Shown: positions 3,041 through 61,507 of the stretch, piece by piece
How the letters are laid out: every line of letters begins with the position of its first letter
How positions within the stretch are numbered: position 1 is the first letter of the stretch
The notes under the pieces: generated by a model
Seen by the model: the letters and a program-made list of their open reading frames with translations, nothing else
Told to the model about the DNA's origin: nothing
Database searches by the model: none
Assembly: GCF_054482595.1 (NCBI RefSeq)
Contig: NZ_CM137008.1
Strand: one strand, 5' to 3'
Length of the DNA: 64,000 nucleotides
Made by a program: the position numbers and the translations under genes

Positions 3041-3116
3041 TGGCTCCTCTGACTGGACTCGAACCAGTGACATACGGATTAACAGTCCGCCGTTCTACCG
3101 ACTGAACTACAGAGGA
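3041..3116 (-). tRNA. asnT: tRNA-Asn (GUU)
   Basis: Reverse complement reads TCCTCTGTAGTTCAGTCGGTAGAACGGCGGACTGTTAATCCGTATGTCACTGGTTCGAGTCCAGTCAGAGGAGCCA, a canonical cloverleaf with GTT anticodon. Confidence 0.9.
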
Positions 3117-4106: not shown

Positions 4107-4196
4107 CGGAGAGATGCCGGAGCGGCTGAACGGACCGGTCTCGAAAACCGGAGTGGGGGCAACTCCACCGGGGGTTCAAATCCCCCTCTCTCCGCC
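4107..4196 (+). tRNA. serU: tRNA-Ser (CGA), 90 nt with long variable arm; 3' part is the phage attachment core
   Basis: GGAGAGATGCCGGAGCGGCTGAACGGACCGGTCTCGAAAACCGG...GGTTCAAATCCCCCTCTCTCCGCCA; anticodon loop CTCGAAA. Confidence 0.9.
4135..4196. repeat. attL core: 62-bp direct repeat (2 mismatches) shared with attR
   Basis: cggtctcgaaaaccggagt[g/a]ggggcaactc[c/t]accgggggttcaaatccccctctctccgcca found at 4135-4196 and 43190-43251. Confidence 0.85.
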
Positions 4197-4243
4197 AAAA
4201 TTCAATCACTTACACATCATTAAGTCAGTGACAAAAATCACAC

Positions 4244-4278
4244 TTGGAATTACTTGGAATATTTTCTTGGAATATTTT
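4244..4278. promoter_or_regulatory. Three direct copies of TTGGAAT(ATTTTC): candidate integrase arm-type binding sites (P' arm)
   Basis: Copies at 4244, 4254, 4267; same motif at 43079-43089 and inverted at 43141-43150 near attR; overlaps int 3' end. Confidence 0.4.
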
Positions 4279-5275
4279 CAGGTAACGGGACATCAAGTGT
4301 TGGTGAAACTTTAACCTTCCTGTCATAGATTAGCACTTGCCCTTCGGTTTTGTGACCAGAGAAAAGTTGCTTATCCCGGCTGCTTCCTTCATAGTCTGAA
4401 ATTCCTTTCGCCTTCAGATCATGAAAGGTGAAGTCGGTTAAAATACCTGAAATTTTTCCAGCACGATTTCTTGCATCTACCCACATTTCGTTAAAGCCTT
4501 TGTACATATATCGGTTGCCGTATTGATTGCTGATCACATAGGCAGATTTTGGTAACTGTTTTGCTTTTTCGATCGCTGCCTGTAATCGTGGACTCCATGC
4601 TTTTATCTGTTTTTTTCCGGTTTTCCCTTGCTGGATGAATATCCCGTCGTTTCCAATCTGTTCCCATTTCAGCGATAACACATCGGAAACCCTCGCTGCA
4701 CACAGATAGGCAATTTCCATTGCGATAAAAACAGGAAGAGGTGCAACGCTTAATACTGCCTGGTATTCTTTGTCGGTTACATATCGTTCGCGGTTTTTGG
4801 CCTTGAATTTACTTACACCTGCACATGGGTTAGCCTTCACGTACCCTCGCTCATACCCCCAACTGTAAACACGGGACATACTGCTTTTTTCATGGTTGGC
4901 TTGCGTTTTACTCTGCTCCCCTCTTTTGTCCATGTATCGACGGATGTGTTCTGGTTTTATGGAATCCGCTGGTACCTTACCGAATACGGCAAGCAACTTT
5001 TTTTGATGTTGCAGATAATCTTTTTGTGTTCTTGGACTAAGGTCACTGTAATAGGCGCTGGCGAGGAATTTTTCCCACAAGCGACCGAATGTCATTGCAC
5101 GATCGCGATTATTTACAGTTTCCTCATACTTTTTCCATAAAGCAGCTAAACCATCCTTGATGGCGGTTAGTGTGACAGATTCTCTGGATGTTGGTTTCCA
5201 TACATAACTATATTTATTTGGGTATACATTTGGAGGTAATTTTTCGTGTTCAGGATTTTTCCTTCGTCTTCCCAT
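4250..5275 (-). CDS. int: Tyrosine recombinase / phage integrase
   Basis: 341-aa ORF adjacent to attL; C-terminal catalytic region with R...HxLR...Y-type residues (FTFHDLKAKG...LFSGHKTEGQVLIYDRK). Confidence 0.85.
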   Translation of the reverse strand: MGRRRKNPEHEKLPPNVYPNKYSYVWKPTSRESVTLTAIKDGLAALWKKYEETVNNRDRAMTFGRLWEKFLASAYYSDLSPRTQKDYLQHQKKLLAVFGKVPADSIKPEHIRRYMDKRGEQSKTQANHEKSSMSRVYSWGYERGYVKANPCAGVSKFKAKNRERYVTDKEYQAVLSVAPLPVFIAMEIAYLCAARVSDVLSLKWEQIGNDGIFIQQGKTGKKQIKAWSPRLQAAIEKAKQLPKSAYVISNQYGNRYMYKGFNEMWVDARNRAGKISGILTDFTFHDLKAKGISDYEGSSRDKQLFSGHKTEGQVLIYDRKVKVSPTLDVPLPENIPRKYSK

Positions 5276-8617: not shown

Positions 8618-8675
8618 AAAAAGGGCGGCAGAGCAGTCACGGAGTAAAACTGATACCGCCAAACGTCACCAGAAA
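8618..8675 (-). ncRNA. dicF: DicF small RNA (ftsZ-targeting sRNA of the dicB operon)
   Basis: Minus strand reads TTTCTGGTGACGTTTGGCGGTATCAGTTTTACTCCGTGACTGCTCTGCCGCCCTTTTT, matching remembered DicF with terminal hairpin and U-run. Confidence 0.7.
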
Positions 8676-14222: not shown

Positions 14223-14376
14223 AAACGGTTTGCGGGAAAAGGAGAGTTAAGTAGAATTGCAGCGGGTGCTTGAGGCTATCTGTCTCAGGCATGAACACCA
14301 AAAGGCAGATAGAGAAAAGCCCCAGTTAACATTACGCGTCCTGCAAGACGCTTAACATTAATCTGAGGCTCAATCT

Positions 14377-14589
14377 ATGAACGGCAAATCTAGGTTAGCC
14401 TCTTACGTGCCGAAAGGCAAGGAGAAGCAGGCTATGAAGCAGCAAAAGGCGATGTTAATCGCCCTGATCGTCATCTGTTTAACCGTCATTGTGACGGCAC
14501 TGGTAACGAGGAAAGACCTCTGCGAGGTACGAATCCGAACCGGCCAGACGGAGGTCGCTGTCTTCACAGCTTACGAACCTGAGGAGTAA
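14377..14589 (+). CDS. mok: Mok-like leader ORF, in-frame N-terminal extension of hok
   Basis: 70-aa ORF MNGKSRLASYVPKGKEKQA... continuing into the Hok reading frame. Confidence 0.45.
   Translation: MNGKSRLASYVPKGKEKQAMKQQKAMLIALIVICLTVIVTALVTRKDLCEVRIRTGQTEVAVFTAYEPEE
14434..14589 (+). CDS. hok: Hok/Gef-family type I toxin
   Basis: 51 aa MKQQKAMLIALIVICLTVIVTALVTRKDLCEVRIRTGQTEVAVFTAYEPEE; complementary mRNA end elements at 14263-14276 and 14639-14653. Confidence 0.8.
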   Translation: MKQQKAMLIALIVICLTVIVTALVTRKDLCEVRIRTGQTEVAVFTAYEPEE

Positions 14590-18018: not shown

Positions 18019-18094
18019 GGCCCTTTAGCTCAGTGGTGAGAGCGAGCGACTCATAATCGCCAGGTCGCTGGTTCAAATCCAGCAAGGGCCACCA
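18019..18094 (+). tRNA. tRNA with CAU anticodon (Ile2/Met-like)
   Basis: GGCCCTTTAGCTCAGTGGTGAGAGCGAGCGACTCATAATCGCCAGGTCGCTGGTTCAAATCCAGCAAGGGCCACCA. Confidence 0.8.
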
Positions 18095-18095
18095 A

Positions 18096-18172
18096 CCGCC
18101 ACTAGCTCATCAGGAAAGAGCGTCAACCCTTTAAGTTGAGTGTGCGAGGTTCGAGTCCCCGGTGGCGGTCCA
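18096..18172 (+). tRNA. tRNA, anticodon read as UUU (Lys) but loop atypical; identity provisional
   Basis: Acceptor CCGCCAC/GTGGCGG, D and T arms, encoded CCA; anticodon loop CCTTTAA with C at position 33. Confidence 0.55.
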
Positions 18173-18174
18173 GT

Positions 18175-18250
<76 letters not shown>

Positions 18251-18253
18251 TAT

Positions 18254-18328
<75 letters not shown>

Positions 18329-28026: not shown

Positions 28027-28049
28027 CACCCGCCGCTGGCGGGTTTTTT
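28027..28049 (+). terminator. Hairpin + T-run upstream of major tail gene (possible attenuator)
   Basis: cccgccgctggcggg followed by ttttttatttt. Confidence 0.5.
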
Positions 28050-28066
28050 ATTTTCAGGAGACGAGT

Positions 28067-28771
28067 ATGTCCTCTAATTTTGAGCGTTCGCAACTGACGA
28101 AAATTATGATTTCGTCTGCACCGGTAACAGCAGAAACCCTGGATTCTGCCAGCTATCTTGGCCTGAGCTGTACAATCAAAGAGGTGCAGTTTACCGCAGG
28201 ACAAAAGCAGGATATTGATGTCACCACGCTGTGTTCTGTTGAGCAGGAAAATATTAACGGCCTTGGTGCCGCGTCAGAGATTTCCATGTCAGGCAACTTT
28301 TACCTCAATGCTGCCCAGAACGCGTTGCGCAGTGCCTATGACAATGACACCACGTATGGCTTTAAAGTTATTTTTCCGTCAGGCAACGGATTTACCTTTA
28401 TGGCAGAGGTGCGTCAGCATACCTGGTCTGCAGGAACTAATGGTGTTGTGGCTGCAACGTTTTCCCTGCGCCTGAAAGGTAAACCTGTGCTGACGACAGA
28501 GCCGCTGAAAGTGAAGGTCGATTTAAACAGCACGCTGCAGGTTTCTGCCGGAGCGAAACTCGAAATGGTGGTTGAGGCTGCCGGTGGTGTGCCGCCTTAT
28601 TCTTATGTCTGGAAGAAAGGTAGTTCTCCTGTTTCCGGACAGACGGCGGCAACATTCAGTAAGGCATCAGCAGCATCAGGTGATGCCGGTGCGTATACCT
28701 GCGAGATTTCTGATTCAGCAAGCCCTGTTAACAAGGTGACCTCCACTTCCTGCACTGTTACCGTCAGTTAA
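28067..28771 (+). CDS. Major tail protein with C-terminal Ig-like domain
   Basis: ATG 28067 after aggag; C-terminal segment GGVPPYSYVWKKGSSPVSGQTAATF...GAYTCEISDSA. Confidence 0.7.
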   Translation: MSSNFERSQLTKIMISSAPVTAETLDSASYLGLSCTIKEVQFTAGQKQDIDVTTLCSVEQENINGLGAASEISMSGNFYLNAAQNALRSAYDNDTTYGFKVIFPSGNGFTFMAEVRQHTWSAGTNGVVAATFSLRLKGKPVLTTEPLKVKVDLNSTLQVSAGAKLEMVVEAAGGVPPYSYVWKKGSSPVSGQTAATFSKASAASGDAGAYTCEISDSASPVNKVTSTSCTVTVS

Positions 28772-29157
28772 TGAGGATAGATGTGATGACTAAAAATATC
28801 CGCAATCTGGCACTGGCAACGATGTCGGGGTTTCGCCATAAAACTGTTGATGTGCCTGAATGGGAAGGGGCAACGGTTGTATTACGGGAACCTTCTGCAG
28901 AAGCCTGGTTGCGCTGGCAGGAGATCGTTAAAGCAAAAGATGATGAGACACCGTTATCCGTTGCGGAGCGCGCCCGCCGAAATCTGGAGGCAGATGTTGA
29001 ACTGTTCATTGATGTTCTGTGTGATACCGGACTGCAACCTGTATTTTCAGAGGATGATCGTGAACAGGTGATTGCCGTGTATGGCCCGGTGCATGCGCGG
29101 CTTCTTCGGCAGTCTCTGGAACTGATCAGTGATGCCGGCGAGGTTAAAAAAAAGTAG
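28771..29157 (+). CDS. Tail assembly chaperone (lambda G-like); 3' end has slippery site
   Basis: ORF ends ...GEVKKK* on A-AAA-AAG at 29148-29154; alternative start ATG 28786. Confidence 0.65.
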   Translation: MRIDVMTKNIRNLALATMSGFRHKTVDVPEWEGATVVLREPSAEAWLRWQEIVKAKDDETPLSVAERARRNLEADVELFIDVLCDTGLQPVFSEDDREQVIAVYGPVHARLLRQSLELISDAGEVKKK

Positions 29158-29459
29158 CGCTTCCGGGGATGCGTTTTCTGATGATGCTGGCGCTCAGGAT
29201 GGGGCGCACATTGTCAGAGTTACGCCGGGAAATGTCCGCATCAGAAATCATGATGTGGGCAGAATTTGACAGGTTCAGCCCGCTGGGTGACGAGCGGGCT
29301 GATATCCGGGCTGCCCAGATAGTTTCTGCGGTTTACGGTGCGCAGGGTGTCAAAGTCCCACTGAATGATGCGCTTCTTCAGTGGGAACAAGAGCAGACAG
29401 AAGGCGTCTCAGATCCATTTGCCGGACTGGAAAACGCGCTTTTAATAGTGTCTCAGTGA
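28771..29459 (+). CDS. Tail assembly chaperone GT-like fusion made by -1 programmed frameshift
   Basis: Downstream ORF 29169..29459 is in the -1 frame relative to G and lacks its own SD. Confidence 0.55.
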
Positions 29460-29469
29460 GTCAACATAA

Positions 29470-29488
29470 CCGCTTCGGCGGTTTTTTT
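29470..29488 (+). terminator. CCGCTTCGGCGG hairpin + U-run between chaperone and tape measure genes
   Basis: ccgcttcggcgg followed by ttttttt. Confidence 0.45.
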
Positions 29489-29498
29489 CGTCCGGAGA

Positions 29499-32400
29499 AT
29501 GAGTGTGGCGACATTACGTGAACTGATTATTAAAATCTCGGCAAATTCCCGGTCATTCCAGTCAGAGATCTCCCGGGCTTCGCGTATGGGGCAGGATTAC
29601 TACCGTACCATGCAGAACGGAGGCCGGCAGTCCGCTGCTGCATCCCGTGAAATGCGGCGTGCACTGGCAGAAGTGACGGATCAGATAAATACAGCTAAAT
29701 CTTCGGCACTGAATATGGCGGGGGCATTTGCCGGAGCTTTTGCTACCGGTCATCTTATTTCTCTCGCCGATGAGTGGAATTCAGTAAATGCCCGTCTGAA
29801 GCAGGCTTCACAGTCCAGTGATGATTTTCAGGTATCACAACGTGAATTAATGGCAATCAGCCAGAGAACGGGAACGGCGTTTTCTGATAACGCCAGCCTT
29901 TTTGCCCGCTCTGCAGCTTCCATGCGGGAGTATGGCTACAGTTCTGAGGAGGTACTGAAAGTCACCGAGGCGATCTCCACGGGCCTGAAATTATCCGGTG
30001 CCAGTACAGCAGAAGCCAGTTCGGTGATCACGCAGTTCAGTCAGGCACTGGCGCAGGGAGTGCTGCGCGGTGAAGAATTTAACTCTGTGAATGAGAACGG
30101 CGATCGTGTTATTCGTGCGCTGGCTGCGGGAATGGGTGTTGCCCGTAAGGATCTGAAGGCCATGGCGGATAACGGAAAACTGACCGCCGATAAGGTTGTT
30201 CCTGCACTGATTAGTCAGCTTGGGGCGTTGCGTGATGAATATGCAGCAATGCCTGATACTGTTTCATCCTCTGCAACCAAAGTTGAAAACGCCTTTATGG
30301 CCTGGGTTGGTGGTGCGAACGAGGCAAGCGGAGTGACAAAGACACTCACCGGGGTGTTGAATGGTGTTGCAGACAATATGGATACCGTGGCTGCTGCAGC
30401 TGGCGCACTGGTTGCCGTCGGGGTAGCCCGATATTTTGGCAATATGGCGTCGTCTGCTGGATCTGCAACTGCCGGATTAATTACTGCAGCCAGAAACGAA
30501 GTGGCTCTTGCTGAAGCGCAACTTCGGGGGACACAGATAGCAACCGCCAGGGCGCGTGCGGCGGTTTATCGTGCGCAACAGGCGGTTGTTGCTGCTCGCG
30601 GTACCGAAAGGCAGGCCGCAGCAGAAGCGAAGCTGACAGCTGCCCAGGCGTCACTTACCCGTAATATTGCGGCCAGAACAGCGGCACAGACAACGCTGAA
30701 TACTGTCACGTCAGTGGGGAGTCGTCTGTTAAGTGGTGCGCTGGGGTTGGTTGGTGGTGTGCCGGGACTCGTCATGCTGGGGGCGACGGCCTGGTACACG
30801 ATGTATCAGAATCAGGAGCAGGCCAGAGAATCTGCACGCCAGTATGCCGCAACAATCGACGAAATTCGCCAGAAAACGTCGGCAATGTCGCTTCCTGAAG
30901 CGTCAGATAATGAGGAAAAGACGCGGCAGGCACTTGATGAGCAAAATAGGTTAATTGACGAGCAGAAAAGTAAGATTAAATCCTTACAGGAAAAAATTGC
31001 TGGCTATCAGTATGTGCTGGCAAACCCGGGCTGGACAACCGATAACGGTTTTATGATTAACCACATGATGTCGGTAAAAACTGTCACAGAAGGGCTTGCA
31101 GAAGCAACAAATCAACTGGCAGTTGAACAGTCCCGTCTCACACAAATGCAGGGCAAAGCGCAATCCATTCAGGATGTGCTTGCCGGGCTGGAGGAGCGAC
31201 GGGTGGCGTTGATCCGTCAACAGGCCGCGGAACAAAACAAAGCGTATCAGTCCCTGTTGATCATGAATGGGCAGCATACCGAGTTTAATCGCCTTCTCGG
31301 GCTCGGTAATGAATTACTTCAGCAGCGACAGGGGCTGGTGAATGTACCGTTACGGCTACCACAGGCAACCTTGGATGATAAACAGCAGACCGCACTGAAT
31401 AACAGTGAGCGCGAACTGGCTCTGTCCCGCCTGAAGGGGGAAGCCCGTGAGCGTGCCCGCCTGGGTTATGCTGCGGATGATCTCGGCTTTGTGGGAGAGG
31501 CGTATCAGACAGCCAGACAGAATTATATCAATAACTCACTGGATGCCTGGCGAAATAACCAGGCAAATAAACCCAAAGCGCATAAAAAGACCGAAGCGGA
31601 AAAAACAGAAGATATTTATAAACGGCTGATTAAACAGCAAAAAGAACAAATAGCACTGGCAGGTCAGAATACTGAACTGGCTAAGATGAAATATCAGGTC
31701 AGTCAGGGCGAATTATCAACCCTGTCAGAAGCGCAGAAAAAAACGCTTTTACAGAATGCGGCACTCATCGACCAGAAAAAGATTCGTGAGCAGCTTGCCG
31801 CGTATGAAAGCAGTCTGGCGGACAGTAATGCCAGCGCCCGGGCATCTGACGACGCGCAGTTGCTGGGATATGGTGAAGGCTCACGGATGCGTGAACGACT
31901 CCAGGAAATGTGGAGTATCCGGCAGGCGTTTGAGCAGAAAAATAACGAGCTGCTGAGACAGTATCAGGCCGGAGAAATTGAAGAAGCCCTGTGGAAACAG
32001 GAGAAAGAACTGAATAAAAAATATCTGGAAGAGCGTCTCAGCGATCAGCAGGATTATTATGCAAAGGCTGATGCTTTACGCAGTAACTGGAATGCCGGAC
32101 TCCAGGAGGGGCTGACGAACTGGGCAGACAGTGCCACTGATTATGCTTCGCAGGCGGCAGATGCTGTCGTTTCCACTATGGACGGGCTGGTATCAAATAT
32201 TTCCGATGCACTGGCCGGAAATGTTGTGGACTGGAGAAACTGGGGGAGTTCAATTCTCCAGGAAGTTTCAAAAATTCTGATGAACGCTGCCATCGTTAAC
32301 GGGCTGAAGTCACTTTCCAAAAGCATGTCCGGTGCCGGAGGATGGCTTGGTACAGTCGGCGACTGGCTGTCCGGTGCAGTGGCAAACGCAAAAGGTGGTG

Positions 32401-32744
32401 TTTATACATCGGCAAATCTGAGTGCTTACAGTAACACTATTGTGGATACACCGACGTATTTTGCTTTTGCGAAAGGTGCCGGGTTGATGGGCGAGGCCGG
32501 GCCTGAAGCAATCATGCCACTGACACGGGCAGCGGACGGCTCTCTTGGGGTCAGGGCCATTGGAAATGTGAATGGTGGCGGTGGATTTGTTTATTCTCCC
32601 GTGTATCACATCAGCATTCAGAATCAAGGGAGCAATGGCGAGATAGATGCGCGCTCAGCCAGGGGACTGGTGGATCTGATCGACAGCAGGGTTGTGTCAA
32701 TTATGCAGTCATCACGTCGGGACGGAGGATTATGCAGTGCCTGA
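29499..32744 (+). CDS. Tail tape measure protein
   Basis: 1081 aa, Ala/Gln-rich coiled-coil-like; position after G/GT. Confidence 0.85.
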   Translation: MSVATLRELIIKISANSRSFQSEISRASRMGQDYYRTMQNGGRQSAAASREMRRALAEVTDQINTAKSSALNMAGAFAGAFATGHLISLADEWNSVNARLKQASQSSDDFQVSQRELMAISQRTGTAFSDNASLFARSAASMREYGYSSEEVLKVTEAISTGLKLSGASTAEASSVITQFSQALAQGVLRGEEFNSVNENGDRVIRALAAGMGVARKDLKAMADNGKLTADKVVPALISQLGALRDEYAAMPDTVSSSATKVENAFMAWVGGANEASGVTKTLTGVLNGVADNMDTVAAAAGALVAVGVARYFGNMASSAGSATAGLITAARNEVALAEAQLRGTQIATARARAAVYRAQQAVVAARGTERQAAAEAKLTAAQASLTRNIAARTAAQTTLNTVTSVGSRLLSGALGLVGGVPGLVMLGATAWYTMYQNQEQARESARQYAATIDEIRQKTSAMSLPEASDNEEKTRQALDEQNRLIDEQKSKIKSLQEKIAGYQYVLANPGWTTDNGFMINHMMSVKTVTEGLAEATNQLAVEQSRLTQMQGKAQSIQDVLAGLEERRVALIRQQAAEQNKAYQSLLIMNGQHTEFNRLLGLGNELLQQRQGLVNVPLRLPQATLDDKQQTALNNSERELALSRLKGEARERARLGYAADDLGFVGEAYQTARQNYINNSLDAWRNNQANKPKAHKKTEAEKTEDIYKRLIKQQKEQIALAGQNTELAKMKYQVSQGELSTLSEAQKKTLLQNAALIDQKKIREQLAAYESSLADSNASARASDDAQLLGYGEGSRMRERLQEMWSIRQAFEQKNNELLRQYQAGEIEEALWKQEKELNKKYLEERLSDQQDYYAKADALRSNWNAGLQEGLTNWADSATDYASQAADAVVSTMDGLVSNISDALAGNVVDWRNWGSSILQEVSKILMNAAIVNGLKSLSKSMSGAGGWLGTVGDWLSGAVANAKGGVYTSANLSAYSNTIVDTPTYFAFAKGAGLMGEAGPEAIMPLTRAADGSLGVRAIGNVNGGGGFVYSPVYHISIQNQGSNGEIDARSARGLVDLIDSRVVSIMQSSRRDGGLCSA

Positions 32745-39334: not shown

Positions 39335-42259
39335 GTGAATATGGCAGTAAAGATTTCAGGTGTACTGAAAGACGGCACAGGAAAACCGGTTCAGAACTGC
39401 ACAATCCAGCTGAAAGCAAAACGTAACAGCACCACGGTGGTGGTGAACACGCTGGCCTCAGAAAATCCGGATGAAGCCGGGCGTTACAGCATGGACGTTG
39501 AGTACGGTCAGTACAGCGTTATTCTGTTGGTGGAAGGATTCCCGCCGTCACATGCCGGGACCATCACCGTGTATGAAGATTCCCAACCCGGTACGCTGAA
39601 TGATTTTCTCGGTGCCATGACGGAGGATGATGCCCGTCCGGAGGCTCTGCGCCGTTTTGAACTGATGGTGGAAGAGGTGACGCGTAACGCGTCCGCGGTG
39701 GCACAGAACACGGCAGCCGCGAAGAAGTCAGCCAGTGATGCCGGCACATCTGCCCGTGAGGCGGCAACCCATGCGACTGATGCTGCAGGCTCAGCGCGTG
39801 CAGCCAGCACGTCAGCCGGACAGGCCGCGACTTCGGCTCAGGAGGCGTCTTCCAGCGCAGGAACGGCATCAACAAAGGCCACTGAAGCATCAAAAAGTGC
39901 TGCCGCTGCAGAGTCCTCAAAAAGCGCGGCGGCCACCAGTGCCGGTGCGGCGAAAACGTCAGAAACGAATGCTGCAGCGTCACAAAAATCAGCAGCCACT
40001 TCTGCATCCACTGCGACGACGAAAGCGTCAGAAGCCGCCACTTCAGCCAGAGATGCGGCGGCCTCCAAAGAGGCGGCAAAATCATCAGAAACGAACGCCT
40101 CCACAAGCGCCAGCAGTGCAGCCTCCTCGGCAACGGCGGCAGGAAATTCCGTGAAGGCGGCAAAAACGTCCGAGACGAATGCCAGGTCTTCTGAAACGGC
40201 AGCGGAACAGAGCGCCTCAGCTGCGGCAGACTCTGAGACAGCAGCTGCATCATCGGCCCGTGAGGCGTCCATTAAGGCAGAGGAGGCAGCAGTCAGTGCC
40301 ACCGCCGCCGGAAAATCGGCAGAAAGCGCCGCATCATCCGCTTCAACAGCCACAACGAAGGCTGGCGAAGCCACTGAACAGGCCAGCGCAGCAGCGAGGT
40401 CTGCTTCCGCAGCGAAGACATCCGAAACGAACGCGAAAGCGTCGGAAACCAGCGCAGAATCCTCAAAAACGGCTGCCGCATCGTCCGCCAGTTCGGCGGC
40501 GTCATCGGCATCATCTGCGTCTGCTTCAAAAGATGAGGCGACCAGACAGGCGTCAGCAGCGAGGGGCAGCGCCACGACGGCATCCACGAAGGCGACAGAG
40601 GCTGCTGGCAGTGCGGCAGCGGCAGCACAGAGCAAAAGTACGGCGGAATCCGCGGCAACGCGCGCCGAGACAGCAGCAAAACGGGCAGAGGATATTGCAT
40701 CCGCCGTGGCGCTTGAGGATGCGAGCACGACGAAAAAGGGGATAGTACAGCTCAGCAGTGCGACCAACAGCACTTCCGAGTCACAGGCGGCAACGCCAAA
40801 AGCCGTTAAGGCCGCGTATGACCTGGCTAACGGGAAATACACCGCACAGGATGCAACGACAGCACAGAAAGGGATAGTTCAGCTCAGCAGTGCGACTAAC
40901 AGCACTTCCGAGTCACAGGCGGCAACGCCAAAAGCCGTTAAGGCCGCGTATGACCTGGCTAACGGGAAATACACCGCACAGGACGCTACGACAGCACAAA
41001 AAGGAATTGTCCAGCTCAGTAGTGCAACCAACAGCACATCTGAAACGCTTGCTGCGACACCGAAAGCAGTGAAAGCAGCTAATGACAATGCGAATGGTCG
41101 GGTACCTTCTGCCCGTAAGGTGAATGGTAAGGCGCTTTCAGCGGATATAACACTGACGCCGAAAGATATTGGTACGCTTAACTCAACAACAATGTCATTC
41201 AGCGGTGGTGCTGGTTGGTTCAAATTAGCAACGGTAACCATGCCACAGGCGAGTTCTGTTGTTTCAATTACGTTGATTGGTGGCGCTGGATTTAACGTGG
41301 GGTCACCTCAACAGGCAGGTATATCTGAACTTGTTTTACGTGCAGGTAATGGTAATCCGAAGGGGATTACTGGTGCTTTATGGCAGCGCACATCGACAGG
41401 GTTTACAAATTTTGCCTGGGTCAATACATCTGGTGATACTTACGATATTTACGTTGCAATCGGAAATTATGCGACTGGTGTAAATATTCAATGGGATTAT
41501 ACCAGTAATGCCAGCGTGACGATTCATACGTCACCAGCATATTCTGCTAATAAGCCGGAAGGGTTAACGGACGGTACAGTTTATTCACTCTATACGCCAT
41601 CAGAGCAGTTTTATCCGCCTGGCGCACCAATCCCGTGGCCATCAGATACCGTTCCGTCTGGCTATGCCCTGATGCAGGGGCAGACTTTTGACAAATCTGC
41701 CTACCCGAAACTTGCAGCCGCTTATCCGTCAGGCGTGATCCCTGATATGCGTGGCTGGACGATTAAGGGCAAGCCCGCCAGTGGTCGTGCCGTATTATCT
41801 CAGGAACAGGACGGCATTAAATCGCATACCCACAGTGCCAGTGCATCCAGTACGGATTTGGGGACGAAAACCACATCGTCGTTTGATTACGGCACTAAAT
41901 CCACGAATAACACCGGAGCGCACACCCATAGTGTCAGTGGTACGGCTGCTTCTGCAGGGGCACATACACACACGGTTGCCTGTTACCCATCTGGCAATAC
42001 CGAGCAGGGCGATAAAGCCCTCAAAGGTGCGTCTCGTGCAGGCTCGAGTACTGGCACATCGTCAGCCGGAGCGCATACCCACCCGGTGTCAGGTACTGCT
42101 GCAAGTGCAGGTGCACACGCGCATACTGTCGGTATTGGTGCTCATACGCACTCCGTTGCGATTGGCTCACACGGACACACCATCACCGTTAACGCTGCTG
42201 GTAACGCGGAAAACACCGTCAAAAACATCGCATTTAACTATATTGTGAGGCTTGCATAA
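39335..42259 (+). CDS. stf: Side tail fibre protein with long Ala/Ser/Thr-rich repeat region, three tandem ~41-aa repeats and His-rich C-terminus
   Basis: 974 aa; repeats [25 protein letters not shown]; C-terminal [18 protein letters not shown] repeats. Confidence 0.75.
40735..41100 (+). repeat. Three tandem ~123-bp coding repeats inside stf
   Basis: Units at ~40735, ~40858, ~40981; first two near-identical. Confidence 0.7.
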
Positions 42260-42843
42260 TGGCATTCAGAATGAGTGAACAACCACGGACCATAACAATT
42301 TATAATCTGCTGGCCGGAACTAATGAATTTATTGGTGAAGGTGACGCATACATTCCGCCTCATACAGGTCTGCCAGCAAACAGTACCGATATTGCACCGC
42401 CAGATATTCCGGCTGGCTTCGTGGCTGTTTTCAACAGTGATGAGGCATCGTGGCATCTTGTTGAAGACCATCGGGGTAAAACAGTTTATGACGTGGCATC
42501 AGGGAACGCGTTATTTATTTCTGAACTCGGCTCATTACCGGAAAATGTTACCTGGTTATCCCCGGCAGGGGAGTTTCAGAAGTGGAACGGCACAGCCTGG
42601 GTGAAGGATACGGAAGCAGAAAAACTGTTCCGGATCCGGGAGGCGGAAGAAACAAAAAACAGCCTGATGCAGGTAGCCAGTGAGCATATAGCGCCGCTTC
42701 AGGATGCTGTAGATCTGGAGATCGCAACGGAGGAAGAAAACTCGTTGCTGGAAGCCTGGAAAAAGTATCGGGTGTTGCTGAACCGTGTTGACACATCAAC
42801 TGCACCTGATATTGAGTGGCCGGAAGAACCAGACACAATGTAA
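42259..42843 (+). CDS. tfa: Tail fibre assembly protein
   Basis: 194 aa; start overlaps stf stop (ATAATGG). Confidence 0.7.
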
Positions 42844-52663: not shown

Positions 52664-53292
52664 TATGTATTCCCTTGTGATTATAATCTTCATGAATATA
52701 TCAATAAGTGCCGTTATCCAAAAAAAAGCACATTTGGATACTATTCTATGAAGTTCATTTTATTTTAAAGATTACATGTAACAAATGTATTTAAAAGATT
52801 TCAAAATGTTTCTAATCTATTTAATATAATTTAGAATTATGAATTCTAAATATAAATATTCATGAAAATTATAAATGTATATCAATATGTTATGAGTTGA
52901 GCGGAAGCATAGGGGGTATCAATGATTGTTGCGCCAAACGGCTGGTGTGATCACGCGCACATTAATGAAGGCATAAAAAAAAGCCGGCATCATGCCGGCC
53001 CAAAAAATATAAACAAGACGATAAAAGGCTAATAACGGAGGCATCATGACACAGAAAAATAAAAAGGTATAATTGTATTCAGTGCTAATATATTGATTAA
53101 ATGAATTAATAAAGCCGATCTCAAAGATAAATAAAATCGCTCAAAACGATTTTTCCTGTATTCACTGCCGTTGCGCAAAAATTATCTATTTGTTCAAAAA
53201 ATGAGTGAGTCTTGACTGGCTCATCCAATGTGGAAAAATGTGACTTTTATCACATAATAGTACTAAGTCTGAATTTTCCGGGTTATCTCAAA

Positions 53293-61420: not shown

Positions 61421-61507
61421 AACACATCAGATTTCCTGGTGTAACGAATTTTTTAAGTGCTTCTTGCTTAAGCAAGTTTAATCCCGACCCCCTCAGGGTC
61501 GGGATTT
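61421..61507 (+). ncRNA. dsrA: DsrA small regulatory RNA
   Basis: AACACATCAGATTTCCTGGTGTAACGAATTTTTTAAGTGCTTCTTGCTTAAGCAAGTTTAATCCCGACCCCCTCAGGGTCGGGATTT matches remembered DsrA including terminator. Confidence 0.85.

What the first reader, a model, noticed from the sequence alone, without database searches (positions are those of the whole stretch)
29140..29459. Programmed -1 frameshift site for a G/GT-type tail chaperone fusion
The G-like ORF ends ...GEVKKK on the heptamer A AAA AAG (29148-29154) two codons before its stop. The next ORF (29169-29459) has no SD and is in the -1 frame, as in lambda G/GT.
Basis: partly seen in the sequence, partly recalled or inferred. Interest (0 to 1): 0.4.

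Follow-up and report, generated by a model that had tools for sequence, protein, structure and literature searches.

The report
Phage tail chaperone −1 frameshift site
This is the expected programmed −1 ribosomal frameshift site in the tail assembly chaperone genes of an HK97/lambda-like E. coli prophage; it is real but ordinary, and the only gap is that public annotation lists the two halves as separate genes.

Summary
The G-like ORF (28786–29157, Pfam PF06222) ends GAG GTT AAA AAA AAG TAG. The heptamer A_AAA_AAG (29148–29154) is in the X_XXY_YYZ phase. The T-like ORF (Pfam PF06223, ending 29459) is in the −1 frame. A −1-frame TAA (29145–47) lies directly before the heptamer and the zero-frame TAG (29155–57) directly after it. 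The heptamer is therefore the only place where a shift can join the two ORFs.

The pair is homologous to HK97 gp13/gp14. HK97 gp13 has a solved structure (PDB 2ob9), and the HK97 record annotates a −1 frameshift. In 90+ related loci T is always in the −1 frame, apart from two contigs with 1-nt indels, and an in-phase A_AAG-type motif sits in the overlap. The annotated T start codon (29169) has no usable Shine-Dalgarno sequence, is not conserved, and lies downstream of an invariant −1-frame proline.

A homologous prophage junction with the same A_AAA_AAG_TAG was measured at 7% frameshifting in E. coli (PMC3711429, Table S2). No conserved stimulatory structure was found.

Verdict: an already known kind of recoding site, correctly identified, of low interest. 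PGAP and the phage records do not annotate the 224-aa fusion.

The parts
28067..28771 (+). Major tail (tube) protein gene with a C-terminal Ig-like domain. It is the expected binding partner of the T domain.
   Evidence: Pfam Ig_2/Ig_3 plus sub-threshold Phage_TTP_11 and Phage_tail_2. PGAP places the start at ATG 28067; the longer ORF from 28016 overlaps a terminator-like hairpin.
28786..29157 (+). G-like tail assembly chaperone ORF (123 aa), the product of standard translation.
   Evidence: PF06222 Phage_TAC_1, E 2.4e-58, full length. PDB 2ob9 'Tail assembly chaperone', E 4.6e-49. GAGGA Shine-Dalgarno sequence 7 nt upstream of ATG 28786. PGAP annotates the same coordinates.
29145..29147 (+). 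TAA stop in the -1 frame, directly 5' of the heptamer. It sets the upstream limit of the productive shift window.
29148..29154 (+). Slippery heptamer A_AAA_AAG, in X_XXY_YYZ phase. It is part of an A8 run at 29146-29153.
   Evidence: No substitution other than AAG->AAA (2 loci) in the window-clade loci of the motif-independent survey; the only other variants are A-run length changes in three contigs. The same heptamer plus TAG in a homologue gave 7% -1 frameshifting (PMC3711429 Table S2).
29155..29157 (+). TAG stop of the G frame, directly 3' of the heptamer.
   Evidence: A stop abutting the shift codon recurs in the YYZ-2008/Stx, Proteus, Klebsiella and Moraxella lineages.
29154..29459 (+). 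T segment read in the -1 frame after the shift (101 codons, GTA ... TGA). The predicted GT fusion is join(28786..29154,29154..29459), 224 aa.
   Evidence: PF06223 Phage_tail_T, E 3e-19. PHROG 14766 (224 positions) covers both halves. Invariant Pro127 is encoded at 29163-65, upstream of the annotated ATG.
29169..29171 (+). ATG used by public annotation as the start of a separate 'tail assembly protein T'. It is probably not a start codon.
   Evidence: No spaced Shine-Dalgarno sequence. The codon is ATA or ATT in 5 of 59 close relatives. It aligns to V/T/I/L/R in more distant homologues.
29468..29490 (+). Intrinsic-terminator-like hairpin (AACCGC-TTCG-GCGGTT followed by a T run) between T and the tape measure gene.
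29505..32744 (+). Tail tape measure protein gene (alternative start ATG 29499). It is the expected binding partner of the G domain.
   Evidence: PF06120, PF20155 and PF09718. PGAP start GTG 29505.

Best explanation
This is a programmed -1 ribosomal frameshift in the tail assembly chaperone gene pair of a lambdoid, HK97-like prophage. Most ribosomes translating the G-like ORF from ATG 28786 terminate at TAG 29155 and release a 123-aa chaperone.

In a few percent of passes the ribosome slips back one base. This can happen when tRNA-Lys(UUU) occupies AAA (29149-51) and AAG (29152-54), or when a single tRNA-Lys sits on AAG in the P site with the slowly decoded TAG in the A site. The tRNAs re-pair with AAA/AAA. 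The next codon read is then GTA (29154-56), and translation continues in the -1 frame to TGA 29457-59. The product is a 224-aa G-T fusion (...GEVKKK-VALPGMRFLMM...).

The function is inferred by homology with lambda gpG/gpGT. Many G copies and a few GT copies coat the tape measure protein (29505-32744). The T domain recruits the major tail protein (28067-28771). Both chaperones leave the finished tail.

Shown here: the sequence anatomy, the homology and the conservation. Shown by others on a homologous junction with the same heptamer and stop: about 7% frameshifting. Inferred: that the shift occurs at this locus, its rate, and the chaperone function.
For: Anatomy: the heptamer is in phase, and the -1-frame TAA and zero-frame TAG flank it exactly.

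Families: G is PF06222 (2.4e-58) and T is PF06223 (3e-19). The G part matches PDB 2ob9, HK97 tail assembly chaperone, at 4.6e-49. PHROG 14766, a 224-position profile of fused proteins, matches both halves with a 7-residue linker.

Synteny: head completion, HK97-gp10-like, tail completion, major tail, G, T, tape measure, M, L, K, I, J.

HK97 itself: gp14 is annotated 'translated due to a -1 frameshift'.

Comparative survey of 15 phage/E. coli loci plus 79 IMG/VR loci. T is in the -1 frame in all but two singleton contigs with 1-nt indels. Observed in-phase motifs are:
- A_AAA_AAG in the window clade, YYZ-2008/Stx, Proteus, Bordetella and Burkholderia
- G_GGA_AAG in mEp506
- G_GAA_AAG in HK97 and Cronobacter
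- A_GCA_AAG in Klebsiella
- A_AAA_AAC in Moraxella

Within the window clade the flanks vary (23 of 57 positions upstream, 11 of 57 downstream). In the TAA + heptamer + TAG block only G29154A is seen.

The fusion alignment has an invariant Pro between the shift site and the annotated ATG, and that ATG is not conserved. The Shine-Dalgarno pairing before ATG 29169 is weak and wrongly spaced.

[quoted passage not shown] A G_GGA_AAG member gave 6% (PMC3711429 text and Table S2).

A_AAA_AAG is among the most shift-prone heptamers in E. coli, and the G/GT mechanism is established for lambda (PMC5009743).
Against: No protein or reporter data exist for this exact sequence.

No stimulatory element is supported. 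The downstream fold has z = -1.4. The alignment fold has no compensatory changes in the proximal helices. The upstream GAGG is only 4 nt from the heptamer and is not conserved.

Public annotation treats T as a separate gene.

A conserved Met (ATG 29181, in the FLM motif) could in principle act as an internal start. A GGGGA lies 11 nt upstream of it (-5.7 kcal/mol).

The A8 run could also support some transcriptional slippage, which would give the same protein.
Confidence: 0.88

Rival explanations
1. The GT product arises mainly from transcriptional slippage. RNA polymerase would add one A in the A8 run (29146-29153), making an mRNA in which G and T are in frame, and the ribosome would not shift.
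For: The run has 8 As, and runs longer than 7 are cited as candidates for transcriptional realignment (PMC3711429). Inserting one A gives exactly the same 224-aa protein. Two public assemblies carry A9 at this site and encode exactly that fusion, which shows the run is length-unstable at least in sequencing or replication.
Against: Homologues keep the motif in the ribosomal X_XXY_YYZ phase with much shorter A runs: A6 in YYZ-2008/Stx, GGGAAAG in mEp506, GCAAAG in Klebsiella. The A6 version still gave 7%. Phase conservation is not needed for polymerase slippage. E. coli RNA polymerase slippage becomes substantial at 9 or more As (own knowledge). It may add to ribosomal shifting rather than replace it.
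Confidence: 0.07
2. T is made as a separate protein, by independent initiation or by termination-reinitiation at ATG 29169 (as annotated by PGAP) or at the conserved ATG 29181. The heptamer would be incidental.
For: PGAP and phage records annotate a separate 96-aa 'tail assembly protein T' or DUF4035 protein. ATG 29169 lies only 11 nt after the G stop, so reinitiation is conceivable. Met133 (ATG 29181) is nearly invariant. In Burkholderia and Bordetella phages the G stop overlaps that ATG as TGATG.
Against: There is no Shine-Dalgarno sequence at a functional spacing for 29169. The 29169 codon is ATA or ATT in 5 of 59 close relatives and is a non-start codon in most distant homologues. An invariant Pro and a conserved linker are encoded upstream of both ATGs in the -1 frame. 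An in-phase slippery motif is conserved across lineages. HK97 gp14 is annotated as a frameshift product. Measured frameshifting in homologues is 6-7%. In lambda, T is made only as GT (PMC5009743).
Confidence: 0.04
3. No recoding takes place. The heptamer is a chance A-rich Lys-Lys-Lys C-terminus, and the T ORF is a decaying remnant in a defective prophage.
For: AAAAAAG is common in the window (29 matches on both strands). Some contigs carry indels at the run.
Against: T is under clear purifying selection, with 22 invariant columns over phages at 25-66% identity. The locus is 100% identical in many E. coli chromosomes and is present in isolated phages Evi, phi467 and others.
Confidence: 0.01

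Closest known systems
Phage HK97 gp13/gp14 tail assembly chaperone pair (PF06222 + PF06223; PDB 2ob9; gp14 annotated as a -1 frameshift product in NC_002167)
   Same: Same two protein families. The window fusion is 64% identical to the HK97 fusion in alignment A1, and tblastn gives 61.5% to the HK97-like phages HK446/HK544. Both fusions are 224 aa. The position between the major tail and tape measure genes is the same, and T is in the -1 frame.
   Different: HK97 has a 52-nt overlap. Its only in-phase A_AAG motif is G_GAA_AAG, and the G stop lies five codons later. The window has the canonical A_AAA_AAG, a 7-nt shift window and an abutting TAG. HK97 carries the gp15 moron between T and H; the window has only a terminator-like hairpin there.
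Prophage 'Phage_TAC' cluster tested by Antonov et al. 2013 (PMC3711429), YYZ-2008/Stx-phage type junction
   Same: Homologous G and T, about 64% identity. Identical A_AAA_AAG_TAG shift site with the stop abutting. E. coli host. Measured at 7% -1 frameshifting.
   Different: The flanking sequence differs: A6 rather than A8, and a 25-nt rather than a 10-nt open -1 window. The window sequence itself was not tested.
Phage lambda gpG/gpGT (G_GGA_AAG; Levin et al. 1993; Xu et al. 2004, 2013, 2014, as reviewed in PMC5009743)
   Same: Same gene position. Low-level -1 shift near the 3' end of G. The T domain is in the same Pfam family (PF06223: lambda 2e-14, window 3e-19). No stimulatory element is needed. 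The presumed role in tape measure / tail tube assembly is the same.
   Different: Lambda G is PF06894, with no detectable pairwise similarity to the window G (E 4.9). The heptamer is G_GGA_AAG, and the G stop lies six codons downstream.
E. coli dnaX gamma/tau frameshift (A_AAA_AAG)
   Same: Identical heptamer, decoded by the single tRNA-Lys(UUU) (PMC5009743).
   Different: dnaX has an upstream Shine-Dalgarno-like stimulator at about 10 nt and a downstream hairpin, and shifts at about 50%. Neither stimulator is supported here. Here the shift extends the protein rather than truncating it.

Membership tests
G/GT-type programmed -1 frameshift tail assembly chaperones (Xu, Hendrix & Duda 2004 class) | Two ORFs located between the major tail protein gene and the tape measure gene | tested here: met
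   Major tail 28067-28771, G 28786-29157, T to 29459, tape measure 29505-32744. Pfam assignments.
G/GT-type programmed -1 frameshift tail assembly chaperones (Xu, Hendrix & Duda 2004 class) | Downstream ORF in the -1 frame, overlapping the 3' end of the upstream ORF | tested here: met
   -1 frame, open from 29148. The same relation holds in all related loci except 2 contigs with indels.
G/GT-type programmed -1 frameshift tail assembly chaperones (Xu, Hendrix & Duda 2004 class) | Slippery X_XXY_YYZ heptamer in phase within the overlap | tested here: met
   A_AAA_AAG at 29148-54. Conserved in the clade and in other lineages.
G/GT-type programmed -1 frameshift tail assembly chaperones (Xu, Hendrix & Duda 2004 class) | Downstream ORF lacks its own translation initiation signals | tested here: inconclusive
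   No spaced Shine-Dalgarno sequence for ATG 29169, and that ATG is not conserved. A weak GGGGA lies 11 nt before the conserved ATG 29181, so internal initiation cannot be excluded from sequence alone.
G/GT-type programmed -1 frameshift tail assembly chaperones (Xu, Hendrix & Duda 2004 class) | A fusion protein is actually made at a low, fixed ratio to G, and both are required for tail assembly and absent from virions | not testable with these tools
   Only indirect support: 7% and 6% in reporters for two homologous junctions (PMC3711429), and lambda data as reviewed in PMC5009743.
HK97 gp13/gp14 family | G part belongs to PF06222 (Phage_TAC_1) and is homologous to HK97 gp13 (PDB 2ob9) | tested here: met
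   PF06222 195.9 bits against a cut-off of 25. 2ob9_A E 4.6e-49 over residues 1-125.
HK97 gp13/gp14 family | T part belongs to PF06223 (Phage_tail_T) | tested here: met
   69.6 bits against a cut-off of 25.9. Lambda T also matches this family.
Lambda gpG family (PF06894, Phage_TAC_2) | Sequence membership of the G part | tested here: not met
   The window G hits only PF06222, while lambda G hits PF06894. BLASTP between the two gives E 4.9. It works like lambda G but is not in its sequence family.
dnaX / IS3-type stimulated A_AAA_AAG frameshift | Upstream Shine-Dalgarno-like stimulator about 10-14 nt 5' of the heptamer, and a stable hairpin or pseudoknot 5-9 nt 3' of it | tested here: not met
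   GAGG is 4 nt upstream and is replaced by GAAG or GTTA in relatives. The downstream fold has z = -1.4. The consensus fold has a covariation term of -1.0 kcal/mol, and the one strongly conserved, G-C-rich hairpin lies 36 nt downstream inside the conserved ALRMGR codons; the proximal helix is weak and G-U-rich.
Programmed transcriptional realignment | Homopolymer long enough for RNA polymerase slippage (typically 9 or more A/T), with no requirement for codon phase | tested here: inconclusive
   The window has A8, but homologues keep phase with A6 or GGGAAAG. No transcript data are available.

The most novel reading that the evidence does not exclude
The prophage's own late-operon tRNA with a UUU anticodon (18096-18172) may take part in decoding the A_AAA_AAG site. 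It is a diverged copy of the Stx-phage argN, and its anticodon loop reads CCUUUAA, with C at position 33. By acting at the shift site it could tune the G:GT ratio, for example by buffering the phage against host changes in tRNA-Lys U34 thiolation, which are known to alter lambda G/GT frameshifting (PMC3296357 abstract).

I found nothing that excludes this. I also found no strict co-occurrence: phi467, YYZ-2008, Proteus and Burkholderia phages have the site without this tRNA. The tRNA may be non-functional.
Probability: 0.04. Interest if true: 0.55.

Novelty: already known. Interest (0 to 1): 0.1.

Why it matters
The scientific value is small, because this is a standard feature of long-tailed phages. 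The practical value is for annotation. This exact locus occurs in about 900 of 5,426 complete E. coli genomes and in isolated phages, and it is everywhere annotated as two separate genes ('tail assembly chaperone' plus 'tail assembly protein T' or DUF4035). The real second product is most likely a 224-aa fusion, join(28786..29154,29154..29459). Correct gene models matter for proteomics and for phage engineering. They also matter for studies of bacterial immune sensors that recognise tail assembly chaperones (Avs17, bioRxiv 10.64898/2026.01.04.697583).

Tried and rejected
- NCBIfam gave no hit for G, T or the fusion.
- Downstream stimulatory structure: the single-sequence fold was not significant (z = -1.4). 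The alignment fold of 11 haplotypes showed no compensatory changes in the two helices nearest the site. Rejected.
- Upstream Shine-Dalgarno-like GAGG as a stimulator: rejected, because the spacing is wrong and it is not conserved.
- Heptamer rarity as an argument: rejected as stated. AAAAAAG is frequent in the window, and only its position and phase are informative.
- Xu et al. 2004 could not be read. Statements about it rest on citing reviews and on my own knowledge.
- The first supplement search of PMC3711429 found nothing. A second search found Table S2.
- The per-position variability count selected loci by the motif, so it is circular for the motif itself. The motif-independent survey is the valid basis for saying the site is conserved.
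- Link between the phage tRNA(UUU) and the site: checked by co-occurrence. No strict association, so it is kept only as a low-probability reading.

Full report
**1. Observation.**
The window sequence at 29140-29157 reads GAG GTT AAA AAA AAG TAG in the frame of the upstream ORF. The heptamer A_AAA_AAG occupies 29148-29154 in the X_XXY_YYZ phase needed for tandem -1 slippage. The zero-frame stop TAG (29155-57) follows it directly, so the heptamer covers the last two sense codons.

The downstream ORF (ATG 29169 to TGA 29457-59) is in the -1 frame. That frame is closed by a TAA at 29145-47 and opens at 29148. The region where a -1 shift can join the two ORFs is therefore exactly the 7-nt heptamer.

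AAAAAAG alone is not rare. It occurs 29 times on both strands against about 16 expected, and 16 times on the + strand.

ATG 29169 has only a GGGG directly abutting it (-4.5 kcal/mol, spacing 0). Neighbouring late genes have anti-SD pairings of -6 to -11 kcal/mol at 3-9 nt.

**2. What the genes are.**
- The upstream ORF (123 aa from ATG 28786, preceded by GAGGA) matches Pfam PF06222 Phage_TAC_1 over its whole length (E 2.4e-58).
- The downstream ORF matches PF06223 Phage_tail_T (E 3e-19).
- The next gene is a tape measure protein (PF06120, PF20155, PF09718).
- The previous gene is a tail tube protein with an Ig-like C-terminus.

The wider order is connector, head completion, HK97-gp10-like, tail completion, major tail, G, T, tape measure, M, L, K, I, J. 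The G part matches the solved structure 2ob9, 'Tail assembly chaperone' (HK97 gp13), at E 4.6e-49. PHROG 14766, a 224-position profile, matches G at positions 1-121 and T at 129-220, which is a profile of fused proteins. NCBIfam had no model.

Lambda G belongs to a different Pfam family (PF06894) and shows no pairwise similarity to this G (E 4.9). Lambda T shares PF06223. The pair is therefore HK97 gp13/gp14-type. It is analogous to lambda G and homologous to lambda T.

**3. Where it occurs and how it is annotated.**
The 728-bp segment is 100% identical in many E. coli chromosomes and matches 900 of 5,426 complete genomes. It is 97-99% identical in isolated phages (phi467, Evi, vB_Eco series). 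The window is an E. coli chromosome with a lambdoid prophage beside tRNA-Ser(cga).

PGAP and the phage records annotate two separate CDSs and no slippage join. The exact G and T sequences each occur on 1000 or more contigs under the names 'phage tail assembly chaperone' and 'DUF4035' or 'tail assembly protein T'. In contrast, the HK97 reference record annotates gp14 as 'translated due to a -1 frameshift', and HK446 does likewise.

**4. Comparative test.**
I dissected the junction in 15 annotated loci and 79 IMG/VR loci. T is in the -1 frame everywhere except two singleton contigs with 1-nt indels (L048, L053).

The overlap always contains an in-phase motif. In every lineage but Moraxella, where it is A_AAC, the motif ends in A_AAG:
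- A_AAA_AAG followed at once by TAG: the window clade, YYZ-2008/Stx phages, Proteus Pm34
- A_AAA_AAG 30 nt before the stop: Bordetella and Burkholderia phages
- G_GGA_AAG: mEp506
- G_GAA_AAG: HK97, HK446, Cronobacter
- A_GCA_AAG_TAA: Klebsiella
- A_AAA_AAC_TAA: Moraxella

In the window clade the flanks vary, including synonymous GGC/GGA/GGT and GAG/GAA just upstream and CGC/AGC/CAC/CGA just downstream. The block TAA-AAAAAAG-TAG changes only by AAG to AAA in two loci. The count selected loci by the motif, so one search is the unbiased basis for this statement.

The fusion alignment shows an invariant proline (Pro127, encoded at 29163-65) between the shift site and the annotated ATG. The residue at the annotated ATG is V/T/I/M/L/R in other lineages. 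It is ATA or ATT in 5 of 59 close relatives. This argues that the -1 frame is translated from the heptamer onward, not from ATG 29169.

**5. Experimental support from the literature.**
Antonov et al. 2013 (PMC3711429) tested two members of a 'phage tail assembly chaperone' cluster similar to HK97 in an E. coli GST-MBP reporter and found 6% and 7% frameshifting.

[quoted passage not shown]. This is identical to the YYZ-2008 junction I extracted (L007). It is a homologue at about 64% identity with the same heptamer and the same abutting TAG. The 6% insert is the G_GGA_AAG_CCG_TAA type, as in mEp506.

The review PMC5009743 states three relevant points:
- A_AAA_AAG, G_GGA_AAG and the bare A_AAG are shift-prone in E. 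coli.
- Lambda G:GT is about 30:1, and neither protein is in virions.
- G binds the tape measure protein, and T binds the major tail protein.

**6. Mechanism.**
Most ribosomes terminate at TAG and release G. A few percent slip one base back on the Lys codons and continue through GTA GCG CTT CCG GGG ATG... to make the 224-aa GT protein.

The abutting stop and the Klebsiella-type site suggest a second route: a single-tRNA P-site slip on A_AAG while the stop codon waits in the A site. At the Klebsiella site only the Lys tRNA can re-pair. This is my inference. Both routes give the same protein.

No stimulator is supported. The downstream fold has z = -1.4. The consensus fold of 11 haplotypes has a negligible covariation term. 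Its only strongly conserved, G-C-rich hairpin lies 36 nt downstream inside the codons for the conserved ALRMGR motif; the proximal helix is weak and G-U-rich. The upstream GAGG is too close and is not conserved. This matches the low-efficiency lambda type rather than dnaX.

**7. Rivals.**
- Transcriptional slippage on the A8 run would give the same protein and may contribute. However, homologues keep the ribosomal phase with A6 or GGGAAAG, and the A6 version still gives 7%.
- Independent initiation or reinitiation of T is disfavoured by the missing Shine-Dalgarno sequence, the non-conserved ATG and the conserved upstream -1-frame residues. It cannot be excluded for the conserved ATG 29181.
- Chance or pseudogene status is excluded by conservation.

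**8. Novelty and score.**
This is an already known kind of recoding signal in a family where it is annotated (HK97) and where near-identical junctions have been measured. The only new element is that this very common E. coli prophage allele is not annotated as a fusion. Interest 0.1.

The most novel reading not excluded is that the prophage's own argN-derived tRNA with a UUU anticodon modulates the shift. I give it about 4%.

Noticed in passing
window 18019-18328 (+), especially 18096-18172: A four-tRNA cluster lies between the Q antiterminator and the holin: Met/Ile2(CAT), 'Lys'(UUU), Thr(UGU), Gly(UCC). PGAP calls them tRNA-Ile, Lys, Thr and Gly. The 'Lys' tRNA is a diverged copy of the Stx-phage argN (Nil2 tRNA-Arg UCG). 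Its anticodon loop has changed from CUUCGAA to CCUUUAA, including C at the normally invariant U33. Its Rfam score is low (44 bits). It would read the very codons of the A_AAA_AAG shift site. It also occurs in PPompW prophages, Evi, 606R7 and PhiR47_1.
   Followed up: partly
L098 1860-1872, L099 1156-1168, L048 about 1860 (equivalent to window 29146-29153): The A run at the shift site differs in length among public assemblies. It is A8 in nearly all. One IMG/VR contig has A7, which puts T in the +1 frame. Two independent assemblies (Logan ERR13868054, ENA ERZ27292621) have A9, which fuses G and T in frame and encodes exactly the predicted 224-aa product. Whether these are homopolymer sequencing errors or real slippage mutants was not resolved.
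   Followed up: partly
window 29468-29490 and 28028-28054 (+): Two strong intrinsic-terminator-like hairpins lie inside the late tail operon. One is between T and the tape measure gene. The other is just before the major tail gene, and it overlaps the 5' end of the longest ORF (ATG 28016), so the real start is probably ATG 28067, as PGAP has it. HK97 annotates putative terminators at equivalent places. At the T-H position HK97 also carries the gp15 moron, which is absent here.
   Followed up: partly
L004 (HK97) 1330-1345; L006 (Cronobacter ENT39118); L008 (Klebsiella P7641) 1190-1205: Several homologues lack a canonical X_XXY_YYZ heptamer. HK97, HK446 and Cronobacter have CGG/GTG_GAA_AAG (G_GAA_AAG). 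Klebsiella phages have GCT_AAA_GCA_AAG_TAA, with only a 10-nt open window. This implies single-tRNA A_AAG slippage next to a stop, or imperfect P-site re-pairing.
   Followed up: partly
L002 (phage vB_EcoM-606R7) 1862-2189: In this GenBank record the T region is split into two short overlapping 'tail assembly chaperone' CDSs (138 and 207 nt), although the junction sequence is the same as in the window. This looks like an annotation artefact.
   Followed up: no
window 14264-14439 (+), 8623-8674 (-), 42602-42800 (+): Rfam gathering-level hits inside the prophage: sok antitoxin RNA (112 bits), DicF sRNA (77 bits), and 'IS009' RNA (222 bits) lying within the ORF 42259-42843 that follows the 974-aa ORF at 39335-42259, just downstream of J.
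   Followed up: no
window 3041-3116 (-), 4108-4197 (+), 4250-5275 (-); 52976-53065 (-), 61421-61507 (+): The chromosomal context identifies the host as E. coli-like. tRNA-Asn and tRNA-Ser(cga) lie next to an ORF of integrase size on the minus strand, which suggests a serU-type attachment site. The sRNAs rseX and DsrA lie downstream of the prophage.
   Followed up: no
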